Below are positions 6,829-50,953 of a DNA stretch of 60,258 bases, in pieces. A model generated the notes under the pieces. The model was not told the DNA's origin. It did not search any database and saw only the letters and a program-made list of their open reading frames with translations. Source of the stretch: Patescibacteria group bacterium (GTDB lineage: Bacteria > Patescibacteriota > Minisyncoccia > UBA6257 > GWB1-50-10); the NCBI GenBank assembly GCA_023474215.1, contig JAMCYI010000004.1, forward strand, positions 1 through 60,258, in the 5' to 3' direction. The first letter of the stretch is position 1. Each line of letters begins with the position of its first letter. The position numbers and the translations under genes were made by a program.

Positions 6829-6844
6829 ATTCCTATTATAACAA

Positions 6845-6932
6845 ATTTTGAATTATAGAATTTTGAATTTCGATTGAATTCGAGAATTCATAAATTAAAT
6901 AATTCATTCGAAATTAAATCATTCGAAATTTA
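6845..6932. repeat. Inverted heptamer-repeat element, copy A1 (AATTTTG/TTCGAAA flavour)
   Basis: aattttgaatttcgattgaattcgagaattcataaattaaataattcattcgaaattaaatcattcgaaatt; nearly identical to 8830-8908. Confidence 0.8.
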
Positions 6933-8216
6933 AACTATCTTTTTGATTCTTCGGATTACCTCATCTATCTCTTTTCTCGTTGTTGTAATGCCGAAGCTGA
7001 ACCGGACGCTCCCCCGCACGCGCTCTTCGGGAAACCCCAGGGCATGGAGAACATGCGACGGCGTGAACGCCCGGGCCGAACAGGCCGAACCGGCCGAAGC
7101 CGCGATCCCCGCTTGATCGAGCTGTACCAAAAAATCGCCGGTGAATTCGCTCGGGAAATAAACGTTCAGGATATGCGGCGCATCGGCATTCCCGTTGATC
7201 TCCGCTTTTTTATACGCAGCCTTGAGCTTCTTCCAAAAATAATTTTTGGCATCCCCGACATACTTTGCGTTTTTGTTCCGCGACGCATAGGCGAGTTCCA
7301 CCGCCTTTCCGAAGCCGGCGACCGCGGGCGTGTTCTCCGTGCCAGAACGAAAACCGAACTCTTGGCCGCCACCCGTCACCTGCGGTGACAGAAATTTCGA
7401 ATTTTGAATTTCGAATTTTGAATTTACGTACAAGGCGCCGACGCCTTTCGGGCCGTACACTTTTTGGCCGGAGAGGGTCATAAGGTCGACGCCGAGTTTT
7501 TCGACATCGCAATCGAGGTACATCAACGCCTGCGCAGCGTCGGTATGAAAGAGCGGGTAGGAGGAGAAACTTGCCTCACGAAAAGACGGGGTCTCACTCG
7601 GCCAGCGACTCGTTCGCCCCTTGGCTCTCGCCCTCGCTCTCTCGCTTCGCTCGAACCCTGCCCGCTCGGACTCCGAGACACTTTTCTTAGAGACAAGTTT
7701 CTCCTCCTTAAATTTTTCTATGACGCTTGAGATTTTTTTAATTGGCTGGATGGTACCGATTTCGTTGTTCACATACATCACGGAGACGAGGATGGTTCGT
7801 TCATCGAGCGCTTCTTCCAATTTTTTGAGATCGACGACCCCCTTTTTGTCGACTGGGAGGACGACGACCTCGACGCCGTCACGTTCAAGCTCATGGGCGG
7901 TATCGAGAACCGATTCGTGTTCGATAGCCGAAACGATTACCTTGGGGGTTGGTCCTCCGTACCCTCGCACGATCCCGCGGAGCGCTAGGTTATTCGCTTC
8001 CGTTGCGGACCCGGTAAAAATGACTTCGCGGAATTCGGCGCCGATCGAGCGGGCAAACACCTCGCGAGCGGCATCCACGGCGGCCATCGCTTCTTGGCCG
8101 AATGAGTGGAGCGAACCCGGGTTGCCGTATTTCTCGGAAAAATACGGCAGCATTGTTTTTAAAGCCTCCGGACGGACTGGAGTTGATGCCGCATAATCTA
8201 AATAAATCTTTTTCAT
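6930..8216 (-). CDS. iscS: Cysteine desulfurase (IscS/NifS-type) carrying two repeat-derived in-frame insertions
   Basis: YLDYAAST, GNPGSLH, FTGSATEANN, HTDAAQ, SGQKVYGPKGVG, RSGTEN, AGSAC. Start placed at MKKIY (8216); the track starts at 8231. Confidence 0.9.
   Translation of the reverse strand: MKKIYLDYAASTPVRPEALKTMLPYFSEKYGNPGSLHSFGQEAMAAVDAAREVFARSIGAEFREVIFTGSATEANNLALRGIVRGYGGPTPKVIVSAIEHESVLDTAHELERDGVEVVVLPVDKKGVVDLKKLEEALDERTILVSVMYVNNEIGTIQPIKKISSVIEKFKEEKLVSKKSVSESERAGFERSERARARAKGRTSRWPSETPSFREASFSSYPLFHTDAAQALMYLDCDVEKLGVDLMTLSGQKVYGPKGVGALYVNSKFEIQNSKFLSPQVTGGGQEFGFRSGTENTPAVAGFGKAVELAYASRNKNAKYVGDAKNYFWKKLKAAYKKAEINGNADAPHILNVYFPSEFTGDFLVQLDQAGIAASAGSACSARAFTPSHVLHALGFPEERVRGSVRFSFGITTTRKEIDEVIRRIKKIV
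7391..7425. repeat. Heptamer-repeat tract in frame within iscS
   Basis: gaaatttcgaattttgaatttcgaattttgaattt encodes NSKFEIQNSKF. Confidence 0.75.
7559..7708. mobile_element. Palindromic miniature element inserted in frame in iscS (150 bp)
   Basis: Perfect 15-bp inverted ends aggaggagaaacttg / caagtttctcctcct. Core ctcgccctcgctc...gcccgctcggactccgagac is shared with 20089, 34208 and 42156. Confidence 0.75.
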
Positions 8217-8228
8217 GGTTTCAAGTAT

Positions 8229-8362
8229 CAAACAAAAACCTAAATCCTAAGCACTAAATTCTAAACAATATCCAAATCCAAAATCATAATGACCGAAACG
8301 TGTTTGGTATTTGGCGCTTTGAGCTTTATTTAGGATTTAGGATTTGGAATTTAGGATTTCGT
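8229..8362. repeat. Inverted heptamer-repeat element (CTAAATC/GATTTAG flavour)
   Basis: cctaaatcctaagcactaaattctaaac ... tttaggatttaggatttggaatttaggatt, between the mgtC-family stop and iscS. Confidence 0.8.
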
Positions 8363-8816: not shown

Positions 8817-8829
8817 GAGTTAATTATAC

Positions 8830-8908
8830 AATTTTGAATTTTGAATTTCGATTGAATTCGAGAATTCGTGAATTAAGTAATTTACTCGAAATTAAATCAT
8901 TCGAAATT
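8830..8908. repeat. Inverted heptamer-repeat element, copy A2
   Basis: aattttgaattttgaatttcgattgaattcgagaattcgtgaattaagtaatttactcgaaattaaatcattcgaaatt; near-duplicate of 6845-6932. Confidence 0.8.
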
Positions 8909-30620: not shown

Positions 30621-30660
30621 AGGAGCGGTTTCATCAAAAGAACCGCTCCTACTTTTTTAT
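30621..30660. terminator. Intrinsic terminator at convergent junction with ileS
   Basis: aggagcggtt...aaccgctcct-acttttttat. Confidence 0.7.
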
Positions 30661-33600
30661 TCCGATCCAGATCGGGTCGCCGTCGAATTTCGTCTCGATC
30701 TCGACATCGAACTTGTCGGAACGCCTAAGAAGAATGTCCGAAGCGTTTATTTCTTTCATCAGGAGCTTTTTATTGCGCTCCACAATATTTTTAACCTCGG
30801 GTTGGGCTTCGACGAGAAGCGTTATCTTGTCTTTGGGGACAAACCCGCCGTCTTGGCGAAGATCTTGGATCATGCGCACGAGCTCGCGAACCGTTCCCTC
30901 TTCTTTGAGCTCCGGCGTGATCACCGTGTCGAGGACGAAATCCTCTTTTAACTTGGAGTCGAAGGTCACTTCTTTTACATTGATTTCATCCTTTAAAATT
31001 TCGAGAAGAGCCGCATCCATCTTCGATCTCGAATCCTTGACCGCGAGCGACGCGAGGGGCTGGCGTACTTTGATCCCCAATTCCGCACGCTTTGCGAGAG
31101 CAGCACTCGCGAGATCGCGCACCGTCTTCATGCCGTGTAACAATTTCGAGTTCCGAGTTTCGAGTTTTGGGCTGGTCTTAGGCCATTCCTCCAGGTGGAC
31201 CGAGAGCTCACCCTTCAAAGAGACGGACTGATAGAGCGCATCGGCGAAGAACGGCATAAAAGGAGCAAGGAGCTTGGTAAGTTCGGTAAGACAATACCGG
31301 AGCGTCGCCGACGCCGCGGCATAATCCTTCTTGTTGTCCGGCTTTTGGAGCCGCCTCCGCGAACGGCGGATATACCACCGCGAAAGGTCGTTCACGAACT
31401 CTTCAATCGACTTGCCGGCGCCGCCGATATCATACGCATCAAGGGCTTTGGTCGAAACAGCGATGGCTTCGTCGAGGCGCGCGATGACCCACCGATCGAG
31501 AACGTTCGATTTCGCGGTCGGCGCTTTATATTTGGCGCTTTTATCGGCGTACGTCCGGTAGAAAACGTACGAGTTGTACATCATGAGGATGAACTGACGG
31601 AGCACTTTCCCGAGGTCTGCTTCGTCGAAGCGCTTCGGTTCGCCCGGCGCATTCACGGTATAAAAATACCACCGGACGGTATCGGCGCCGTATTTTTGGA
31701 TCATGTCCCACGGGCTCACGGTATTTCCCTTTGACTTCGACATCTTTTGGGCGTTCTTATCGAGCAGGAGGCCCAAGGAGATCACGTTCCGGTACGGTGC
31801 TTTTTTCTTCAAGAGCGTTGCGACGGCAAGGAGCGTATAGAACCAGCCGCGCGTTTGATCGATCCCTTCAACGATGTAATCGGCGGGATACAGAAGCTTT
31901 GTCTTGTTCTCGAAAGGATAGTGGTCTTCGGCGAAGGGCATCGATCCGGAATCGAACCAAACGTCCGCGACCTCGGGAATCCGCTTCATCGTCCCGCCGC
32001 ATGTGCATTGAAAAACGGCTTCGTCGACGTACGGCTTATGGAGATCGATCTCGCCGGTATCGTTCCGGGGGATCATTTTGAGGCTGAGCTTCCGGATTTC
32101 GGCGAACGTTATAAAATCATCGCCCCGCTTTTCTTTTTCAGCGATCGCCTCGCGCTCCGTCCACCCTTCGGCAACCTGGAAAAGCATCCAAATCGGGTAC
32201 TCGTGCGTCACGAGAAGGATGTTCTTTCCTTCATACTTCAACTCGCATTCCTTGAGGAAATTCCACAAGCGCGTCCGAAGATCGCGGACCGACTCCCCTC
32301 CTTCGGGCCGCCGCTCGAATTTCGACTGAAAGGTCGGGAAAAGCACGTGGTATTTCTCATCGTGGCAGCCCATGAGGTCCGCCCCCAATTGGATCTCTTC
32401 AAGACGCTTGTCCACCTTCGCATCCGCCGTGCCCAGGATCCCAAGATCAATCTCATCGGTTTCCTTCGTCCGCAAAATATCGGACGTGATGACGACGTCG
32501 ATCTTCTTCCCTTTCCGGGCAAGCTCGTGCTTGAACTTTTTGATCGACAATTCGACTTGCCGCTTGCCACGGGCGGTCAGGTGGAATTTCGTTTTTGTCG
32601 CATCGATGATATCAAGGACGTTGTTTTCCGCTTCGCCGTGGCGCATGACCCAATAGCTGTTCTTCGGGCGGCCGAGTTTTTTTGCGAGCTCGCCGACGCC
32701 CCCTAAGACTTCGGTCCTGCCGCATTTTTTACAGACCCAAACCGGAAGCGGCGTTCCCCAATACCGTTCGCGCGAGATCGCCCAATCCTTGACATCCTTC
32801 AGCCATTCGCCGAATCTTCCGTTTTTGATGGTCGCAGGGACCCAGTTCACCGTCTTATTCGAAGCCAAAAGCTCGCGCTTCAATTTGGACATGCCGATGA
32901 ACCACGAATCGCGCGCGTAGTAAAGGATCGGCGTGCCACATCGCCAGCAAAACGGGTATTCGTGCTCGTACTTTTCGGTCTTTAAAAGGAAATTCCGCTC
33001 CTTGAGAAGTTCGAATATCTTTTCTTCGGTTTCTTTCGCCTTCACGTACATCCCCGCAAGCTCAGGGACATCGGCGGTGAATTTCCCCAACGTATCGACG
33101 GTATGATGTTTCGGCAAGCCGACCTTCGTTCCCAATTGGTAATCGTCCTCGCCGTACATGACGGCCGTATGAACGACGCCGGTCCCGTCTTCGGTCGTCA
33201 CGAAATCGGCCGGATATACCCGATACGAGCTCTCTGTTTTCAATTTTTTGACGTCGAAGAGCGGCTCATACCGCAAGCCGACGAGATCCTTGCCACTGAA
33301 AATATTGAGTATCTGGTATTTAGTATTGAGTACTTTATCTGCCAAAAGAGAAGCGATAATGTATTTTTCATCGCTCCCTTCAATACTGACTACTGTATAC
33401 TTGATACTCTCGCCAACTGCGAGGGCGACATTTCCGGGGAGCGTCCACGGCGTCGTCGTCCATGAAAGGACATAGGTATTGCCATCGGTCGTAAAGCTTC
33501 TGCCGATCGTCTGGTTCGGCAAAAGCCTGAACTTCATGTACACCGACATATCCTCGGTCGTCTTGTACCCTTGGGCGAGCTCGTGCGACGACAAGGCCGT

Positions 33601-34161
33601 CCCGCACCGCGTGCACCACGAAATCACCTTATGCCCCTGGTAGAGGAGTTTTTTCTTGTGGACCTCGGAGAAGATCCACCACAAGGTCTCCATGTAGTTC
33701 TTGTCGTACGTGATGTACGGATGATCCATGTCGAGCCAAAAGCCGATGCGCTCAGTGATCCGTTCCCACTCGTCCTTGTATTCCCATACCGACTCGCGGC
33801 ATTTTTTATTGAACGCCGCAATGCCGTATTCTTCGATCTCTTTCTTCGATCTCAACCCGAGCTTTTTTTCAACCTCGATCTCAACCGGCAGACCGTGCGT
33901 ATCCCATCCGGCCCGGCGCGGAACGGAAAATCCGGCCATTGTCCTGTACCGGAGGACGATGTCCTTGAACGAGCGCGAGAGCACATGATGGATCCCCGGA
34001 CGGCCGTTCGCCGTGGGGGGGCCTTCATAAAAAACGAACTTCTTTTTAGCTTTGTTCTTTTTGAGCGATTTCTCGAAAATGCCGTTTTCTTTCCAGAATT
34101 TCAACACCTTCTCTTCGACTTCCGGCAGGGAGAATGCGGAATTGTCCAAATTATCAAGCAT
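30649..34161 (-). CDS. ileS: Isoleucine--tRNA ligase (type 2) with inserted histidine-phosphatase domain
   Basis: FYEGPPTANG, GWDTHGLPVE, WTTTPWTLPGN, GTGVVH, DWAISRERYWGTP, KMSKSKGN; insert with MRHGEAENN. Confidence 0.95.
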   Translation of the reverse strand: MLDNLDNSAFSLPEVEEKVLKFWKENGIFEKSLKKNKAKKKFVFYEGPPTANGRPGIHHVLSRSFKDIVLRYRTMAGFSVPRRAGWDTHGLPVEIEVEKKLGLRSKKEIEEYGIAAFNKKCRESVWEYKDEWERITERIGFWLDMDHPYITYDKNYMETLWWIFSEVHKKKLLYQGHKVISWCTRCGTALSSHELAQGYKTTEDMSVYMKFRLLPNQTIGRSFTTDGNTYVLSWTTTPWTLPGNVALAVGESIKYTVVSIEGSDEKYIIASLLADKVLNTKYQILNIFSGKDLVGLRYEPLFDVKKLKTESSYRVYPADFVTTEDGTGVVHTAVMYGEDDYQLGTKVGLPKHHTVDTLGKFTADVPELAGMYVKAKETEEKIFELLKERNFLLKTEKYEHEYPFCWRCGTPILYYARDSWFIGMSKLKRELLASNKTVNWVPATIKNGRFGEWLKDVKDWAISRERYWGTPLPVWVCKKCGRTEVLGGVGELAKKLGRPKNSYWVMRHGEAENNVLDIIDATKTKFHLTARGKRQVELSIKKFKHELARKGKKIDVVITSDILRTKETDEIDLGILGTADAKVDKRLEEIQLGADLMGCHDEKYHVLFPTFQSKFERRPEGGESVRDLRTRLWNFLKECELKYEGKNILLVTHEYPIWMLFQVAEGWTEREAIAEKEKRGDDFITFAEIRKLSLKMIPRNDTGEIDLHKPYVDEAVFQCTCGGTMKRIPEVADVWFDSGSMPFAEDHYPFENKTKLLYPADYIVEGIDQTRGWFYTLLAVATLLKKKAPYRNVISLGLLLDKNAQKMSKSKGNTVSPWDMIQKYGADTVRWYFYTVNAPGEPKRFDEADLGKVLRQFILMMYNSYVFYRTYADKSAKYKAPTAKSNVLDRWVIARLDEAIAVSTKALDAYDIGGAGKSIEEFVNDLSRWYIRRSRRRLQKPDNKKDYAAASATLRYCLTELTKLLAPFMPFFADALYQSVSLKGELSVHLEEWPKTSPKLETRNSKLLHGMKTVRDLASAALAKRAELGIKVRQPLASLAVKDSRSKMDAALLEILKDEINVKEVTFDSKLKEDFVLDTVITPELKEEGTVRELVRMIQDLRQDGGFVPKDKITLLVEAQPEVKNIVERNKKLLMKEINASDILLRRSDKFDVEIETKFDGDPIWIGIKK

Positions 34162-48914: not shown

Positions 48915-50198
48915 TTATACCCCGCTTTGCTCGTTCGCAAAACGTTCGGCGACAAGCTCCTTTACGATTTCCCTCTCATTCCACGGAATCGTCCTCTTTT
49001 TTGCAATATGAATAGAAGACTCGCTTCCCTTTCCGGTTGCAACGACAACGTCCCCCGGCAAAGCCCCATAGAGAGCTTTTCGGAGAGCTTCACGGCGATC
49101 GAGGACCTTCCAGTAGTTCTTTGAAATTTGGAACTTGGAATTTGGGGTTTGCAAAAGTCCGGCCTCTATCTCATGTATGATGGCTTCCGGGTCTTCGTCG
49201 TAAGGATCTTCGTCGGTCAAAATAACTTCGTCGCAGAATTTTGCGGCGATGCCGCCCATAACCTTCCGCTTCCACTTATCCCGCCCGCCGCCGGCGGAAC
49301 CAAGAACACAGATCAATTTTCCACCGGATTCTTCGGCGAACGAGCTTTGCGCAGCCGAATAAATCTTCTCGAGCGAGTCCGGAGTGTGGGCATAATCGAC
49401 GATCGCCGCGAATGGTTCCTTTATCACAAGATCAAACCGCCCCGGCGTTCCGGCGAATTCCCGAAAGGCCTTTTGGACCGCCGCAAGCGGCACGCCGCGA
49501 ACGGTCGCAAACCGGAGGGCGGCGGCAGCATTTAAAATGTTGAAATCGGGCATAAGCCAATCGGCGATCGCCCGGCGGCCGGAAGCAGTCTTAAGATCCC
49601 ATCCCCACGACTCCGCTTCACGGACGAAATATTGCCTGTCAAACGGAAAGATTTCGGCATCGGGAGCGCCTTCGACGGCGCGGATGAAATAATCCTTGTT
49701 TTCATCTTCGGCGTTCACAAAAAACTGCTTTGGCCTTTTGCGTGACCGAAGGACATCTTGAAAAAATCTGACCTTGGCCGCCCGATAATTCTCGAACGAA
49801 CCGTGCGATTCGATATGTTCGGGAGAAAGGTTCATAAAAAATGCCGCATCCCAATCGATGAACCGATCGCGCCACTGAACGACGCCCTGTGAAGTGACTT
49901 CCACAAAGGCATATTCGGCACCCGCGCGGACCGCATCCCTCAAGAAGCGCTGAATGAAAAACCTACCCGGCATGGTATTGCCCGAGACCTTTTTTGTTTC
50001 AGAGCCGACGATCCGCCGCTTCACGGAAGAAAGAAGGGCTGTTTTTTTTCCAGCCGATTCCAGAACGGCATTCAAAAGTTCGAGCGTGCTCGATTTTCCC
50101 TTTGTGCCGGTAACGCCGATGACCGTGAGATGCCGGCTCGGCCGGCCGTATATGACATTTCCGAGAAACGCCAGCAAAAAATGATAAATTTTCCTCAT
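48915..50198 (-). CDS. murE: UDP-N-acetylmuramoyl-tripeptide synthetase (MurE family)
   Basis: GVTGTKGKSST, EVTSQG, NLSPEHIESHGSFENY..AK, GRF, VDYAHTPDSL, GGGRDKWKR..MG, DEDPYDEDP, GKGSE. Confidence 0.88.
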   Translation of the reverse strand: MRKIYHFLLAFLGNVIYGRPSRHLTVIGVTGTKGKSSTLELLNAVLESAGKKTALLSSVKRRIVGSETKKVSGNTMPGRFFIQRFLRDAVRAGAEYAFVEVTSQGVVQWRDRFIDWDAAFFMNLSPEHIESHGSFENYRAAKVRFFQDVLRSRKRPKQFFVNAEDENKDYFIRAVEGAPDAEIFPFDRQYFVREAESWGWDLKTASGRRAIADWLMPDFNILNAAAALRFATVRGVPLAAVQKAFREFAGTPGRFDLVIKEPFAAIVDYAHTPDSLEKIYSAAQSSFAEESGGKLICVLGSAGGGRDKWKRKVMGGIAAKFCDEVILTDEDPYDEDPEAIIHEIEAGLLQTPNSKFQISKNYWKVLDRREALRKALYGALPGDVVVATGKGSESSIHIAKKRTIPWNEREIVKELVAERFANEQSGV

Positions 50199-50789: not shown

Positions 50790-50919
50790 TATACCCTCTC
50801 CGAAATCCAAAGCCCAAATGACAAATGTCAAATCAATATCAAGGCTCAAATTTCAAATTTTGACATTCGGCTGTTTGGATTTAATTTGATATTTGGAATT
50901 TGGATTTTGAAATTGACAT
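50790..50919. repeat. Inverted heptamer-repeat element (CAAAT/ATTTG flavour) ending in the rpsT -35 box
   Basis: cgaaatccaaagcccaaatgacaaatgtcaaatc ... ttggatttaatttgatatttggaatttggattttgaaattgaca; TTGACA-N17-TACTAT follows. Confidence 0.75.
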
Positions 50920-50953
50920 ATCCCCCCGCAAAAGGTACTATATATCTACTTAT

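What the first reader, a model, noticed from the sequence alone, without database searches (positions are those of the whole stretch)
7391..7425. Heptamer tracts have entered essential proteins in frame
Seen: the same type of 7-mer tract lies inside coding regions. Examples: iscS 7391-7425 (NSKFEIQNSKF), ileS 31143-31168 (KLETRNSKL), ileS 33301-33334 (VLNTKYQILNI) and murE 49121-49151 (QTPNSKFQISK). Three heptamers make 21 nt, i.e. 7 codons, so the frame can survive. Inference: the repeat system generates short peptide loops in housekeeping enzymes.
Basis: partly seen in the sequence, partly recalled or inferred. Interest (0 to 1): 0.65.

Follow-up and report, generated by a model that had tools for sequence, protein, structure and literature searches.

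The report
In-frame 7-base repeats inside essential genes
Short runs of a 7-base DNA repeat really do sit in frame inside housekeeping enzymes of this tiny-genome (Patescibacteria) bacterium, adding about 7 to 11 amino acids at variable linker or loop positions (modelled as a loop only for IscS), and the same thing recurs at the same positions in many relatives, so it looks like a regular way these proteins gain lineage-specific loops.

Summary
Three of the four claimed tracts are genuine period-7 arrays far beyond chance: iscS 7393-7425, ileS 31143-31168 and murE 49120-49151. The window holds 10 such tracts against 0.42 in shuffles. The fourth, ileS 33301-33334, is not significant and aligns gap-free with orthologues.

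The iscS tract is exactly 21 nt (3 units, 7 codons) longer than the 2-unit sequence at the same spot in a relative. The murE tract is an 8-12 aa clade-specific insertion. The ileS tract adds only 2 aa.

In 1.14 Mb of related Patescibacteria DNA, strong tandem arrays are almost only period 7 (68, against 0-4 for any other period). About 87% lie inside long ORFs. They cluster at a few recurrent sites with different units in different lineages, and 0 of 175 orthologues is frameshifted.

Best reading: these are heptanucleotide simple-sequence repeats that grow by slipped-strand events. Selection then filters them: net 3-unit steps, no in-frame stop, A-rich sense strand, about 27-35 nt, variable sites.

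Two things are unresolved: a rival or complementary route through mobile palindromic elements, and why the period is 7.

This is a new variant of a known kind. The comparators are heptanucleotide SSRs, the NeuO repeat and Rickettsia RPEs.

The parts
6930..8216 (-). iscS/nifS-type cysteine desulfurase CDS (428 aa) that hosts the tract
   Evidence: Pfam Aminotran_5 E 4e-72. PDB cysteine desulfurases E 1e-86. The PLP-lysine and active-site cysteine columns are invariant in a 48-sequence alignment.
7393..7425 (-). Heptamer array in iscS. The sense strand reads (AAATTCA AAATTCG)x2 AAATT and encodes NSKFEIQNSKF. It is 21 nt longer than the 2-unit form in relative L013.
   Evidence: Coil after strand 261-265, with pLDDT falling from 83 to 45. 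No RNA structure (z -0.47).
30649..34161 (-). ileS CDS (1170 aa, with an inserted His_Phos_1 domain)
   Evidence: Pfam tRNA-synt_1, Anticodon_1, His_Phos_1.
31143..31168 (-). Decayed heptamer array in ileS. The sense strand reads AAACTCG AAACTCG GAACTCG AAATTG and encodes KLETRNSKL. It adds 2 aa relative to tract-free orthologues. Relatives carry cleaner arrays at the same site.
33301..33334 (-). Claimed ileS tract VLNTKYQILNI. It is not confirmed: weak periodicity and no insertion.
   Evidence: TRF 71% matches. Below threshold. Gap-free alignment with L087, L088 and L096.
48915..50198 (-). MurE-like Mur ligase CDS (427 aa)
   Evidence: Pfam Mur_ligase_M and Mur_ligase_C. PDB MurE E 1e-49.
49120..49151 (-). 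Decaying heptamer array in murE. The sense strand reads CAAACCC CAAATTC CAAGTTC CAAATTT CAAAG and encodes QTPNSKFQISK. It is an 8-12 aa clade-specific insertion. The peptide KFQISKNYW is invariant in six of the seven clade sequences compared, down to 61% identity; L163 (86% identical) has KFHISNNYW.
   Evidence: L162 has CAAATTC x3 plus CAAATTT. L220 (another Patescibacterium) has SEIQNSKFKIRN at the same site.
6844..6877 (-). Intergenic array of the same unit family (iscS to the SIMPL-family gene spacer). It lies directly upstream of TGTTATAAT.
8829..8855 (-). Intergenic array of the same family, upstream of TTGTATAAT and the mgtC-like gene. It shares the module GAATTCTCGAATTCAATCGAAATTCAAAATTC with 6851-6890.
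8225..8362 (-). Intergenic hairpin of about 125 nt (mgtC-like gene to iscS) whose two arms are heptamer arrays (AAATCCT type and its complement), followed by a U-run.
   Evidence: dG -34.2, z -3.75. Inverted repeats I1, I2, I4, I5.
50800..50925 (-). Intergenic region with heptamer arrays in inverted orientation; the hairpin signal is weaker.
   Evidence: z -1.58.

Best explanation
The tracts are heptanucleotide simple-sequence repeats (microsatellites with a 7-nt unit) that arise and turn over at the DNA level inside coding sequence. They are translated as part of the protein.

Proposed steps:
1. Seed. A-rich Lys/Asn/Ser/Glu codons at variable positions give chance two-unit seeds, for example AAATTCGAAATTC = NSKF.
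2. Slippage. Slipped-strand mispairing, which in prokaryotes is unusually favoured for 7-nt units, adds or removes units.
3. Frame filter. In an essential gene only net changes of three units (21 nt = 7 codons) survive. The typical product is one 7-aa gain, giving a 27-35 nt tract that encodes about 11 residues.
4. Content filter. A 7-nt repeat is read in all three frames in turn. Only units free of stop triplets persist, or arrays with a patch substitution in every third unit. Arrays whose sense strand is A-rich, and so encode hydrophilic peptides, also persist.
5. Placement and length. Only variable sites tolerate the tracts, so the same few sites are hit again and again in different lineages. 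Long arrays are purged because they frameshift too often.
6. Fate. An array is either re-homogenised or re-expanded (iscS, ileS) or decays by point mutation while its peptide becomes a conserved part of the protein (murE).

Shown: the periodicity, the in-frame state, the exact +21 nt step, the recurrent sites, the filters, and lineage-specific unit patterns.
Inferred: slippage as the generating event, and the reason for period 7.
For: Period specificity.
- In 1.14 Mb of related loci, arrays with at least p+7 net matches number 68 for period 7 and 0-4 for every other period from 4 to 15.
- Perfect tandem 7-mer duplications number 324 against 92 expected, and 35 against 0 for three or more units. 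Other k give ratios of 1.1-2.7 for k=4-9 (k=6 is 626 against 366; k=8 is 70 against 26); k=10-12 have only 2-5 cases. For three or more units, other k give at most 6 above chance.

Exact quantum. The window's iscS equals L013 plus 21 nt within an existing 2-unit seed.

In-frame and tolerated.
- 86 arrays lie in ORFs of 200 aa or more against 13 outside.
- 0 of 175 IscS, IleS and MurE orthologues is frameshifted.

Selection filters.
- The sense strand has A>T in 74 arrays against 8.
- Stop-containing units make up 27% against 45% expected. The longer arrays built on such units carry TAA>CAA/TAT/GAA/TCA changes in every third unit (for example L126, L128, L140, L146), and the shortest (about 19-20 nt) end before the stop would come into frame.
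- Coding arrays pile up at 27-35 nt, while AAATTCN arrays outside ORFs reach 130 nt.

Recurrent sites with different units.
- In IleS, most of the 46 arrays found in 81 genes cluster at about 5 recurrent sites, with a few singletons; most lie in low-occupancy alignment columns.
- The IscS loop is 12 aa canonically and 10-54 aa in the 120 nearest homologues.

Turnover.
- Window (AAATTCA AAATTCG)x2, L298 (AAATTCG AAATTTG)x2, L299 AAATTCA x3.
- Four of the five differences between window and L298 fall as two pairs 14 nt apart (P about 0.005).
- At the ileS site, unit distance is 1.13 within a lineage against 1.97 between orthologous units.

Location. Coil after a strand in an AF2 model (mean pLDDT 86). 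Gaps against solved structures.

Background from papers.
- Heptanucleotide repeats are the most abundant long-SSR class in most prokaryote genomes, and a polymerase-slippage explanation was proposed (Mrazek et al. 2007, as summarised in PMC4679880 and PMC4692102).
- neuO is translated in full only when its AAGACTC copy number is divisible by 3 (PMC13001214).
Against: - A two-unit seed cannot slip by 21 nt in one simple misalignment. Three units must be added in one processive event or through frameshifted intermediates, and neither has been observed.
- No within-population length variants were seen. Only assembled contigs were available, and these drop rare variants.
- Some insertions are not pure arrays. 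L082 has a private 36-nt insert with 15 non-repeat bases. L295 has an 88-nt hairpin element twice in one gene.
- The ileS tract is only +2 aa and many IscS loops are +4 aa, so gain is often accompanied by loss of neighbouring residues, which slippage alone does not explain.
- Why 7, and not the frame-neutral 6 or 9, is unexplained.
- The loci were chosen by homology to three tract-bearing genes, although the comparison between periods within those loci is an internal control.
Confidence: 0.6

Rival explanations
1. The coding tracts are insertions, or half-copies, of small mobile non-autonomous elements built from heptamer arrays. These would be MITE-like or Rickettsia-palindromic-element-like, and would land in frame at permissive sites instead of growing in place.
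For: - The same unit family (AAATTCN, AAATCCN) occurs at 6 loci in the window, all in one orientation.
- Two intergenic copies share a composite module of more than 30 nt.
- Intergenic hairpins have arms made of heptamer arrays (z -3.75 and -4.8).
- In L295 an 88-nt hairpin element of this kind sits twice, in frame, at both variable sites of one IscS, with 90% identity between copies.
- L028 carries the same composite array in two genes.
- L082 has a private 36-nt insert with non-repeat bases.
- The window's own IscS carries a roughly 150-nt in-frame insert bounded by a 19-nt, 95% complementary inverted repeat.
Against: - The three window tracts have no inverted-repeat partner and no structure (z -0.47, +0.91, +1.04).
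- The iscS gain is exactly three units inside a pre-existing two-unit seed, with no extra bases or target duplication.
- Units within one genome are nearly as diverse as between genomes (2.80 against 3.10 mismatches, p about 0.02).
- No transposase link was found or sought.
Confidence: 0.2
2. The arrays are functional nucleic-acid signals kept by selection, and the peptide is a side effect. Candidates are binding sites for a DNA- or RNA-binding protein, internal promoter or UP-like elements, or mRNA signals.
For: - Intergenic arrays of the same family abut -10-like boxes (TGTTATAAT, TTGTATAAT), and TCGAAA lies 17 nt upstream as a possible -35 (my reading of the sequences).
- There is a strong orientation bias relative to the gene.
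- Arrays keep about the same size, 4-5 units.
Against: - No -10 box follows the coding tracts (sequence).
- Units at one homologous site differ completely between lineages: AATCTAC, AAATCCT, GGGTTTG and TAGGGTN in the IscS loop.
- Units also differ within one genome, which no single reader protein would tolerate.
- The murE array is decaying at the DNA level while its peptide is conserved.
- The orientation and size biases are explained by stop avoidance, peptide hydrophilicity and frameshift load.
Confidence: 0.07
3. The tracts are contingency (phase-variation) switches of the NeuO type that turn the genes on and off.
For: A non-triplet SSR inside a CDS is the classic architecture. neuO uses an A-rich heptamer (AAGACTC) and is ON when the copy number is divisible by 3 (PMC13001214).
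Against: - The hosts are single-copy housekeeping enzymes.
- Arrays are short (4-5 units, against 3-53 in neuO).
- 0 of 175 orthologues and none of the contigs laid on the window are out of frame.
- In neuO, 66% of genomes are OFF (PMC13001214).
Confidence: 0.03
4. The periodicity is a chance by-product of codon usage in Lys/Asn-rich segments, and no special process is involved.
For: This is the likely explanation for ileS 33301-33334, which is below threshold and aligns gap-free.
Against: For the other three tracts, both the shuffles and the comparison between periods exclude it.
Confidence: 0.02

Closest known systems
Heptanucleotide long simple-sequence repeats of prokaryotes (Mrazek, Guo & Shah 2007), including cyanobacterial STRR, TAACTGA repeats of Beggiatoaceae and cyanobacteria (PMC4679880) and GGGAATC/GGGGATT repeats of Xanthomonas and Nostoc (PMC4692102)
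   Same: - Head-to-tail 7-nt units, usually a handful of copies.
- Strongly over-represented relative to other unit lengths.
- Extensive unit and length variation between relatives.
- AAATTCN arrays of four or more units occur in more than 119 GTDB loci, including Nostocales, Bacteroidota and Patescibacteria.
   Different: - The described families are mainly intergenic and under-represented in coding regions (PMC4692102). TAACTGA carries stops in all frames and occurs in ORFs only at their edges (PMC4679880).
- Here about 87% of arrays lie inside long ORFs, in conserved housekeeping enzymes, at internal positions.
- In the AAATTCN scan, 12 of 16 Patescibacteria arrays lie in ORFs of 200 aa or more, against 2 of 29 in cyanobacteria. 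This is a hand tally, and an ORF is only a proxy for a gene.
neuO heptanucleotide VNTR (AAGACTC) of E. coli K1 prophage CUS-3
   Same: - An A-rich 7-nt unit inside a CDS.
- Three units encode a 7-aa peptide.
- The protein is made only when the unit number keeps the frame (PMC13001214).
   Different: - neuO is a dispensable, phase-variable modification gene with 3-53 units at its 5' end and mostly OFF alleles.
- Here the arrays are short, internal, in essential enzymes, and never out of frame.
Rickettsia palindromic elements (RPE; Ogata et al. 2000, as reviewed in PMC10969869)
   Same: - Repetitive DNA inserted in frame into unrelated housekeeping genes of a reduced-genome, host-dependent bacterium, at positions compatible with the fold.
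- The window's 7559-7708 insert and the L295 elements resemble this closely.
   Different: - RPEs are palindromic elements of about 100-150 bp belonging to defined families.
- The three tracts examined are 26-33 nt, are not palindromic, have no structure, and in iscS grew from a local seed.

Membership tests
Heptanucleotide simple-sequence repeat (long SSR) | Head-to-tail copies of a 7-nt unit, longer than chance allows | tested here: met
   TRF. Score against shuffles: 10 against 0.42. Met for iscS, ileS-1 and murE; not for ileS 33301-33334.
Heptanucleotide simple-sequence repeat (long SSR) | Copy number differs between relatives by whole units | tested here: met
   iscS: 2 units in L013/P0010 against 5 in the window, L297, L298 and L299, a difference of exactly 21 nt.
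Heptanucleotide simple-sequence repeat (long SSR) | Length polymorphism within a population (ongoing slippage) | tested here: inconclusive
   Only assembled contigs of 4 runs could be laid on the window. No indel appeared in the tract, but contigs drop rare variants. The metagenome pattern scan found nothing.
Phase-variable contingency locus (NeuO type) | A non-triplet repeat inside the CDS so that unit number sets the frame | tested here: met
Phase-variable contingency locus (NeuO type) | Out-of-frame (OFF) alleles common among strains or relatives | tested here: not met
   0 of 175 orthologous loci show the gene in two frames. No indels in contigs.
Phase-variable contingency locus (NeuO type) | The host gene is dispensable (surface or modification function) | tested here: not met
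   The hosts are IscS, IleS and MurE-like proteins.
In-frame palindromic mobile element (RPE / MITE) | Terminal inverted repeats or overall hairpin structure | tested here: not met
   Tract regions fold no better than shuffles (z -0.47, +0.91, +1.04). Met instead by the separate insert 7559-7708 (19-nt arms, 95%).
In-frame palindromic mobile element (RPE / MITE) | Several near-identical copies at unrelated sites in one genome | tested here: inconclusive
   Six loci share the unit family and two intergenic copies share a composite module. However, the coding tracts share only units, and only 60 kb of the genome is available.
In-frame palindromic mobile element (RPE / MITE) | Target-site duplication and a partner transposase | not tested
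   No duplication is evident at the iscS gain. Transposase linkage needs the whole genome.
Cyanobacterial STRR | Tandem heptamers in intergenic DNA of heterocystous cyanobacteria | tested here: not met
   The organism is a Patescibacterium and the tracts are intragenic. The resemblance is in unit length only.

The most novel reading that the evidence does not exclude
Patescibacteria, and perhaps Bacteroidota and cyanobacteria too, may possess a heptamer-specific generator of repeats. This could be an unusual processive replication or repair behaviour, or a family of mobile heptamer-array elements. It would continually write, erase and rewrite 7-nt arrays at variable sites of essential proteins, making it a major and so far undescribed source of the lineage-specific insertions typical of these proteins, including longer heptamer-armed hairpin modules inserted in frame.
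Probability: 0.3. Interest if true: 0.8.

Novelty: new variant of a known kind. Interest (0 to 1): 0.6.

Why it matters
- Non-triplet microsatellites are expected to be purged from essential genes, because each unit step is a frameshift. Here they are common: 46 arrays in 81 IleS genes. They also occur in GltX, LeuS, UvrA, SecA, Pgk and MurE-like genes of other Patescibacteria.
- This offers a concrete, testable mutational route to the many lineage-specific loops of Patescibacteria proteins, namely a 7-aa quantum from three 7-nt units.
- It gives a natural system for asking why prokaryotic slippage favours 7 nt.
- It supplies hypervariable markers inside universal genes for strain typing.
- It warns annotators and structure modellers that such loops are repeat-derived.
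- It implies a standing frameshift load on essential genes in these small genomes.

Tried and rejected
- One genome-specific template unit (telomerase-like idea). Within-locus unit pairs are only slightly more alike than between-genome pairs (2.80 against 3.10 mismatches, p about 0.02). Single genomes hold very different units. Rejected as the main cause.
- Hairpin or RNA structure in the coding tracts. None found.
- Conserved hairpin centre ACGTTTCGG as an element signature. Not enriched in the window (29 against 29.4 expected).
- Further copies of the 19-nt inverted repeat of the iscS insert. None in the window.
- Copies of the L082 private insert. None in 299 loci.
- Population length variants. 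Only contigs were available and they show no indels. A degenerate flank-gap-flank scan of metagenome contigs found nothing.
- Frameshifted orthologues at tracts. None.
- Literature. No paper on heptamer repeats in Patescibacteria/CPR turned up in 6 full-text searches. Mrazek 2007 itself is not held and is cited through PMC4679880 and PMC4692102.
- Fold of the 145-nt iscS insert. Not better than shuffles (z -0.12), although its terminal inverted repeat is significant.
Full report
**What is there**

The window is from a Patescibacteria (Paceibacteria-type) genome of about 52% G+C. A 99%-identical MAG (WY2.bin70) and relatives labelled Jorgensenbacteria, Wolfebacteria, Paceibacterota and the like were found with the three host proteins.

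The three host genes are intact:
- A cysteine desulfurase, 6930..8216 on the minus strand (Pfam Aminotran_5, E 4e-72; PDB cysteine desulfurases E 1e-86).
- IleS, 30649..34161 on the minus strand.
- A MurE-like Mur ligase, 48915..50198 on the minus strand.

**The observation**

- *iscS, 7393-7425.* On the plus strand this is AATTTCGAATTTTG x2.4 with 100% matches. On the sense strand it reads GTA AAT TCA AAA TTC GAA ATT CAA AAT TCG AAA TTT, which is VNSKFEIQNSKF.
- *ileS, 31143-31168.* Period 7, 3.4 copies, 88% matches.
- *murE, 49120-49151.* CAAACCC CAAATTC CAAGTTC CAAATTT CAAAG.
- *Against chance.* With a +1/-2 score the window has 10 period-7 tracts of score 9 or more, against 0.42 in dinucleotide shuffles. 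Other periods give 0-3. The three coding tracts score 17, 11 and 10.
- *Unit family.* A three-unit AAATTCN pattern with up to 3 mismatches hits 14 times against 0.35 expected. All hits are on the gene-sense strand, in 6 loci: three intergenic sites plus iscS, murE and the hairpin upstream of iscS.
- *The failed example.* ileS 33301-33334 does not reach threshold and aligns without gaps to orthologues. I treat it as chance.
- *Not an artefact.* The iscS tract is present unchanged in an independent assembly and in contigs of three public runs.

**Are they insertions?**

- *iscS.* The segment between GPKGxGALY and GGGQE is 12 aa in nearly all bacteria and archaea sampled (VRKGTKIEPLIH type). It is 18 aa in the window, and 6 aa longer than in PDB 9wep. 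The closest relative without the expansion, L013/P0010 (about 60% identity), has GTA AAT TCG AAA TTC CTG (VNSKFL). The window has the same flanks plus exactly 21 nt, which is three units or seven codons.
- *murE.* The tract is an 8-aa insertion against Thermotoga MurE 4bub and 9-12 aa against distant Patescibacteria. It is shared by a clade down to 61% identity. L162 has a clean CAAATTC x3.
- *ileS.* The tract region is only 2 aa longer than in tract-free orthologues and in PDB 8c8u. Relatives at about 80% identity have the same length with cleaner arrays, for example L083 AATTCAA AATTCGA AATTCGA GATTCGA.
- *Structure.* In an AlphaFold model of the IscS (mean pLDDT 86) the tract residues are coil after strand 261-265. 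Confidence falls from 83 to 45. The MurE and IleS tract positions were not modelled.

**How general is it?**

- *Period specificity.* In the 175 related loci (1.14 Mb), strong tandem arrays number 68 for period 7 and 0-4 for each other period from 4 to 15. Perfect two-unit duplications of 7-mers number 324 against 92 expected. Arrays of three or more units number 35 against 0, whereas other k give at most 6 above chance.
- *Position relative to genes.* Of arrays scoring 12 or more, 86 lie in ORFs of 200 aa or longer and 13 lie outside. That is roughly the gene density I would expect for such genomes, so coding sequence is not avoided.
- *IleS.* 46 arrays occur in 81 genes. Most cluster at about five recurrent sites, near window residues 210, 750, 875, 1000 and 1040, with a few singletons. 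Most sit in alignment columns that few sequences occupy.
- *IscS.* Among the 120 nearest homologues the loop ranges from 10 to 54 aa. A second site ranges from 18 to 71 aa. Both are filled with heptamer-type peptides.
- *Same site, different units.* The IscS loop carries AATCTAC x5 (L002), AAATCCT x5 (L003), AGAATTA-like (L004) and GGGTTTG-like (L008). A further relative in run X8 carries TAGGGTN.
- *Across phyla.* AAATTCN arrays of four or more units occur in more than 119 loci of the GTDB species set.
- *Other Patescibacteria.* Such arrays lie in frame in GltX, UvrA, a LeuS-type synthetase, Pgk, SecA and a MurE-like ligase. In the ligase the site is the same as in the window.
- *Bacteroidota.* They lie in frame in IleS and an IcmF-like mutase.
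- *ORF tally by phylum.* By my hand tally, 12 of 16 Patescibacteria arrays lie in long ORFs. The figures are 8 of 23 for Bacteroidota and 2 of 29 for cyanobacteria. Some long ORFs in high-GC contigs are clearly spurious.

**Signatures of a DNA-level process filtered by selection**

1. No orthologue among the 175 is frameshifted.
2. The sense strand is A-rich in 74 arrays and T-rich in 8.
3. Units that contain a stop triplet are depleted (27% against 45% expected). The longer arrays built on such units carry a substitution in every third unit, exactly where the stop would come into frame. Examples are AAGCTAA AAGCTAA AAGCcAA AAGCTAA in L128, and likewise L126, L140, L146, L082 and L033. The shortest such arrays (about 19-20 nt) end before the stop is reached.
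4. Coding arrays pile up at 27-35 nt and then stop, whereas AAATTCN arrays outside ORFs reach 130 nt. A length of 27-35 nt is what one 21-nt gain on a 12-14 nt seed gives (inference).
5. The arrays have no RNA or DNA secondary structure of their own.

**Turnover**

- The iscS arrays of related lineages have the same length but different internal patterns: window (AAATTCA AAATTCG)x2, L298 (AAATTCG AAATTTG)x2, L299 AAATTCA x3 plus AAATTCG, and L297 a decayed form of the L298 pattern.
- Four of the five differences between window and L298 form two pairs 14 nt apart (P about 0.005 for position alone). In each pair one change is synonymous and the other alters the amino acid. That points to DNA-level copying and not to peptide selection (inference).
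- At the ileS site, units within a lineage differ by 1.13 on average, and 'orthologous' units between lineages by 1.97. That is no better than the 2.00 for non-orthologous units.
- At murE the reverse holds (1.92 against 2.25), and the peptide KFQISKNYW is invariant in six of the seven clade sequences compared (L163 has KFHISNNYW). That array is old and decaying, and its product has become part of the protein.
- The second strain in run X3 equals the L297 type and has the same length.

**Mechanism**

The best-supported account is heptanucleotide slippage plus purifying selection, as set out under Best explanation. Two points come from papers:
- Heptanucleotide repeats are the commonest long-SSR class in most prokaryote genomes, and a polymerase-footprint explanation for slippage at 7 nt was proposed (Mrazek et al. 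2007, as reported in PMC4679880 and PMC4692102).
- A coding heptanucleotide array is translated in full only when its copy number is divisible by three (neuO; PMC13001214).

Two things are not explained. One is how three units are added to a two-unit seed without a lethal intermediate; the options are a single processive event, template switching to another array, or polyploidy masking the intermediates. The other is why 7 is preferred over the frame-neutral 6 or 9.

**The rival that remains**

Part of the phenomenon looks like mobile DNA.
- The spacer between the mgtC-like gene and iscS (8225-8362) is a 125-nt hairpin whose arms are heptamer arrays (dG -34.2, z -3.75). L298 has the same architecture (z -4.8).
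- In L295 an 88-nt element of this kind occurs twice in frame in one IscS, at both variable sites, with 90% identity between the copies.
- The window's own IscS carries a roughly 50-aa in-frame insert bounded by a 19-nt, 95% complementary inverted repeat (7559-7577 / 7690-7708). This resembles Rickettsia palindromic elements (PMC10969869).

The three tracts under review lack these features, and iscS grew from a local seed. I therefore rank mobility second for them, at 0.2. The two routes may well feed each other.

A regulatory role is unlikely for the coding tracts. They have no -10 box, their units are not conserved, and the murE array is decaying. The intergenic arrays of the same family, in contrast, sit directly upstream of TATAAT boxes and may matter for transcription.

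**Comparison with known systems, and novelty**

The tracts pass the tests for heptanucleotide SSRs. They fail those for phase-variable contingency loci, RPE/MITE elements and STRR (see Membership tests).

I found no paper describing heptamer arrays in Patescibacteria/CPR, or their systematic in-frame occurrence in conserved housekeeping enzymes. The search covers open-access text only. I rate the finding a new variant of a known kind, with interest 0.6.

**Limits**

- The related loci were picked through the three host genes.
- ORFs stand in for genes.
- No raw reads, RNA or proteomic data were available.
- Only 60 kb of the genome was seen.

Noticed in passing
window 7559-7708 (minus strand, inside iscS): A roughly 150-nt, roughly 50-aa in-frame insert (EEKLVSKKSVSESERAGFERSERARARAKGRTSRWPSETPSFREASFSS) that is absent from solved IscS structures. 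It is bounded by a 19-nt inverted repeat with 95% complementarity, so it resembles a MITE or RPE. Related peptides sit at the same site in homologues P0017, P0026 and P0060. There is no other copy of the repeat arms in the window, and the overall fold is no better than shuffles.
   Followed up: partly
window 8225-8362 (between the mgtC-like gene and iscS); also 50800-50925: Long imperfect hairpins whose two arms are heptamer arrays in opposite orientation (dG -34.2, z -3.75 for the first; z -1.6 for the second). The first is followed by UUUUUGUUUG, so it may be a terminator or a small mobile element. L298 has the same architecture in its spacer between iscS and the SIMPL-family gene (z -4.8).
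   Followed up: partly
window 6851-6890 and 8829-8870 (minus strand): Two intergenic regions share the module GAATTCTCGAATTCAATCGAAATTCAAAATTC...AAAATTG, followed directly by TATAAT-type boxes upstream of the SIMPL-family and mgtC-like genes. This looks like a repeated promoter module built from heptamers. The relative L297 has no spacer at all between iscS and the SIMPL-family gene.
   Followed up: partly
window 30649-34161 (ileS), residues 504-669: A histidine-phosphatase (His_Phos_1, E 1e-23) domain is inserted in the middle of IleS. The 80 relatives retrieved have similar lengths (about 1150-1270 aa), so the insertion seems to be shared by the group.
   Followed up: no
L295 8217-8304 and 8463-8550 (IscS of another Patescibacterium, P0011): The same 88-nt heptamer-armed hairpin element occurs twice in frame in one gene, with 90% identity between the copies, at the two variable sites. 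It encodes RNSKPEARNPKQ...VSDLGFRNSDL. P0020 and P0027 carry related modules.
   Followed up: partly
L082 4610-4650 (ileS of WY5.bin131, near window residue 884): A private 36-nt insertion, GCTTCGGGGGGCAAG plus CAAATTCGAAATTCAAAATTG (ASGGKQIRNSKL), absent from relatives at about 80% identity. It is an array that arrived together with non-repeat bases.
   Followed up: partly
L295 519-842: Three tandem copies of a 129-nt unit (two identical, the third 92% identical over 66 nt) near the start of that locus. Not examined.
   Followed up: no
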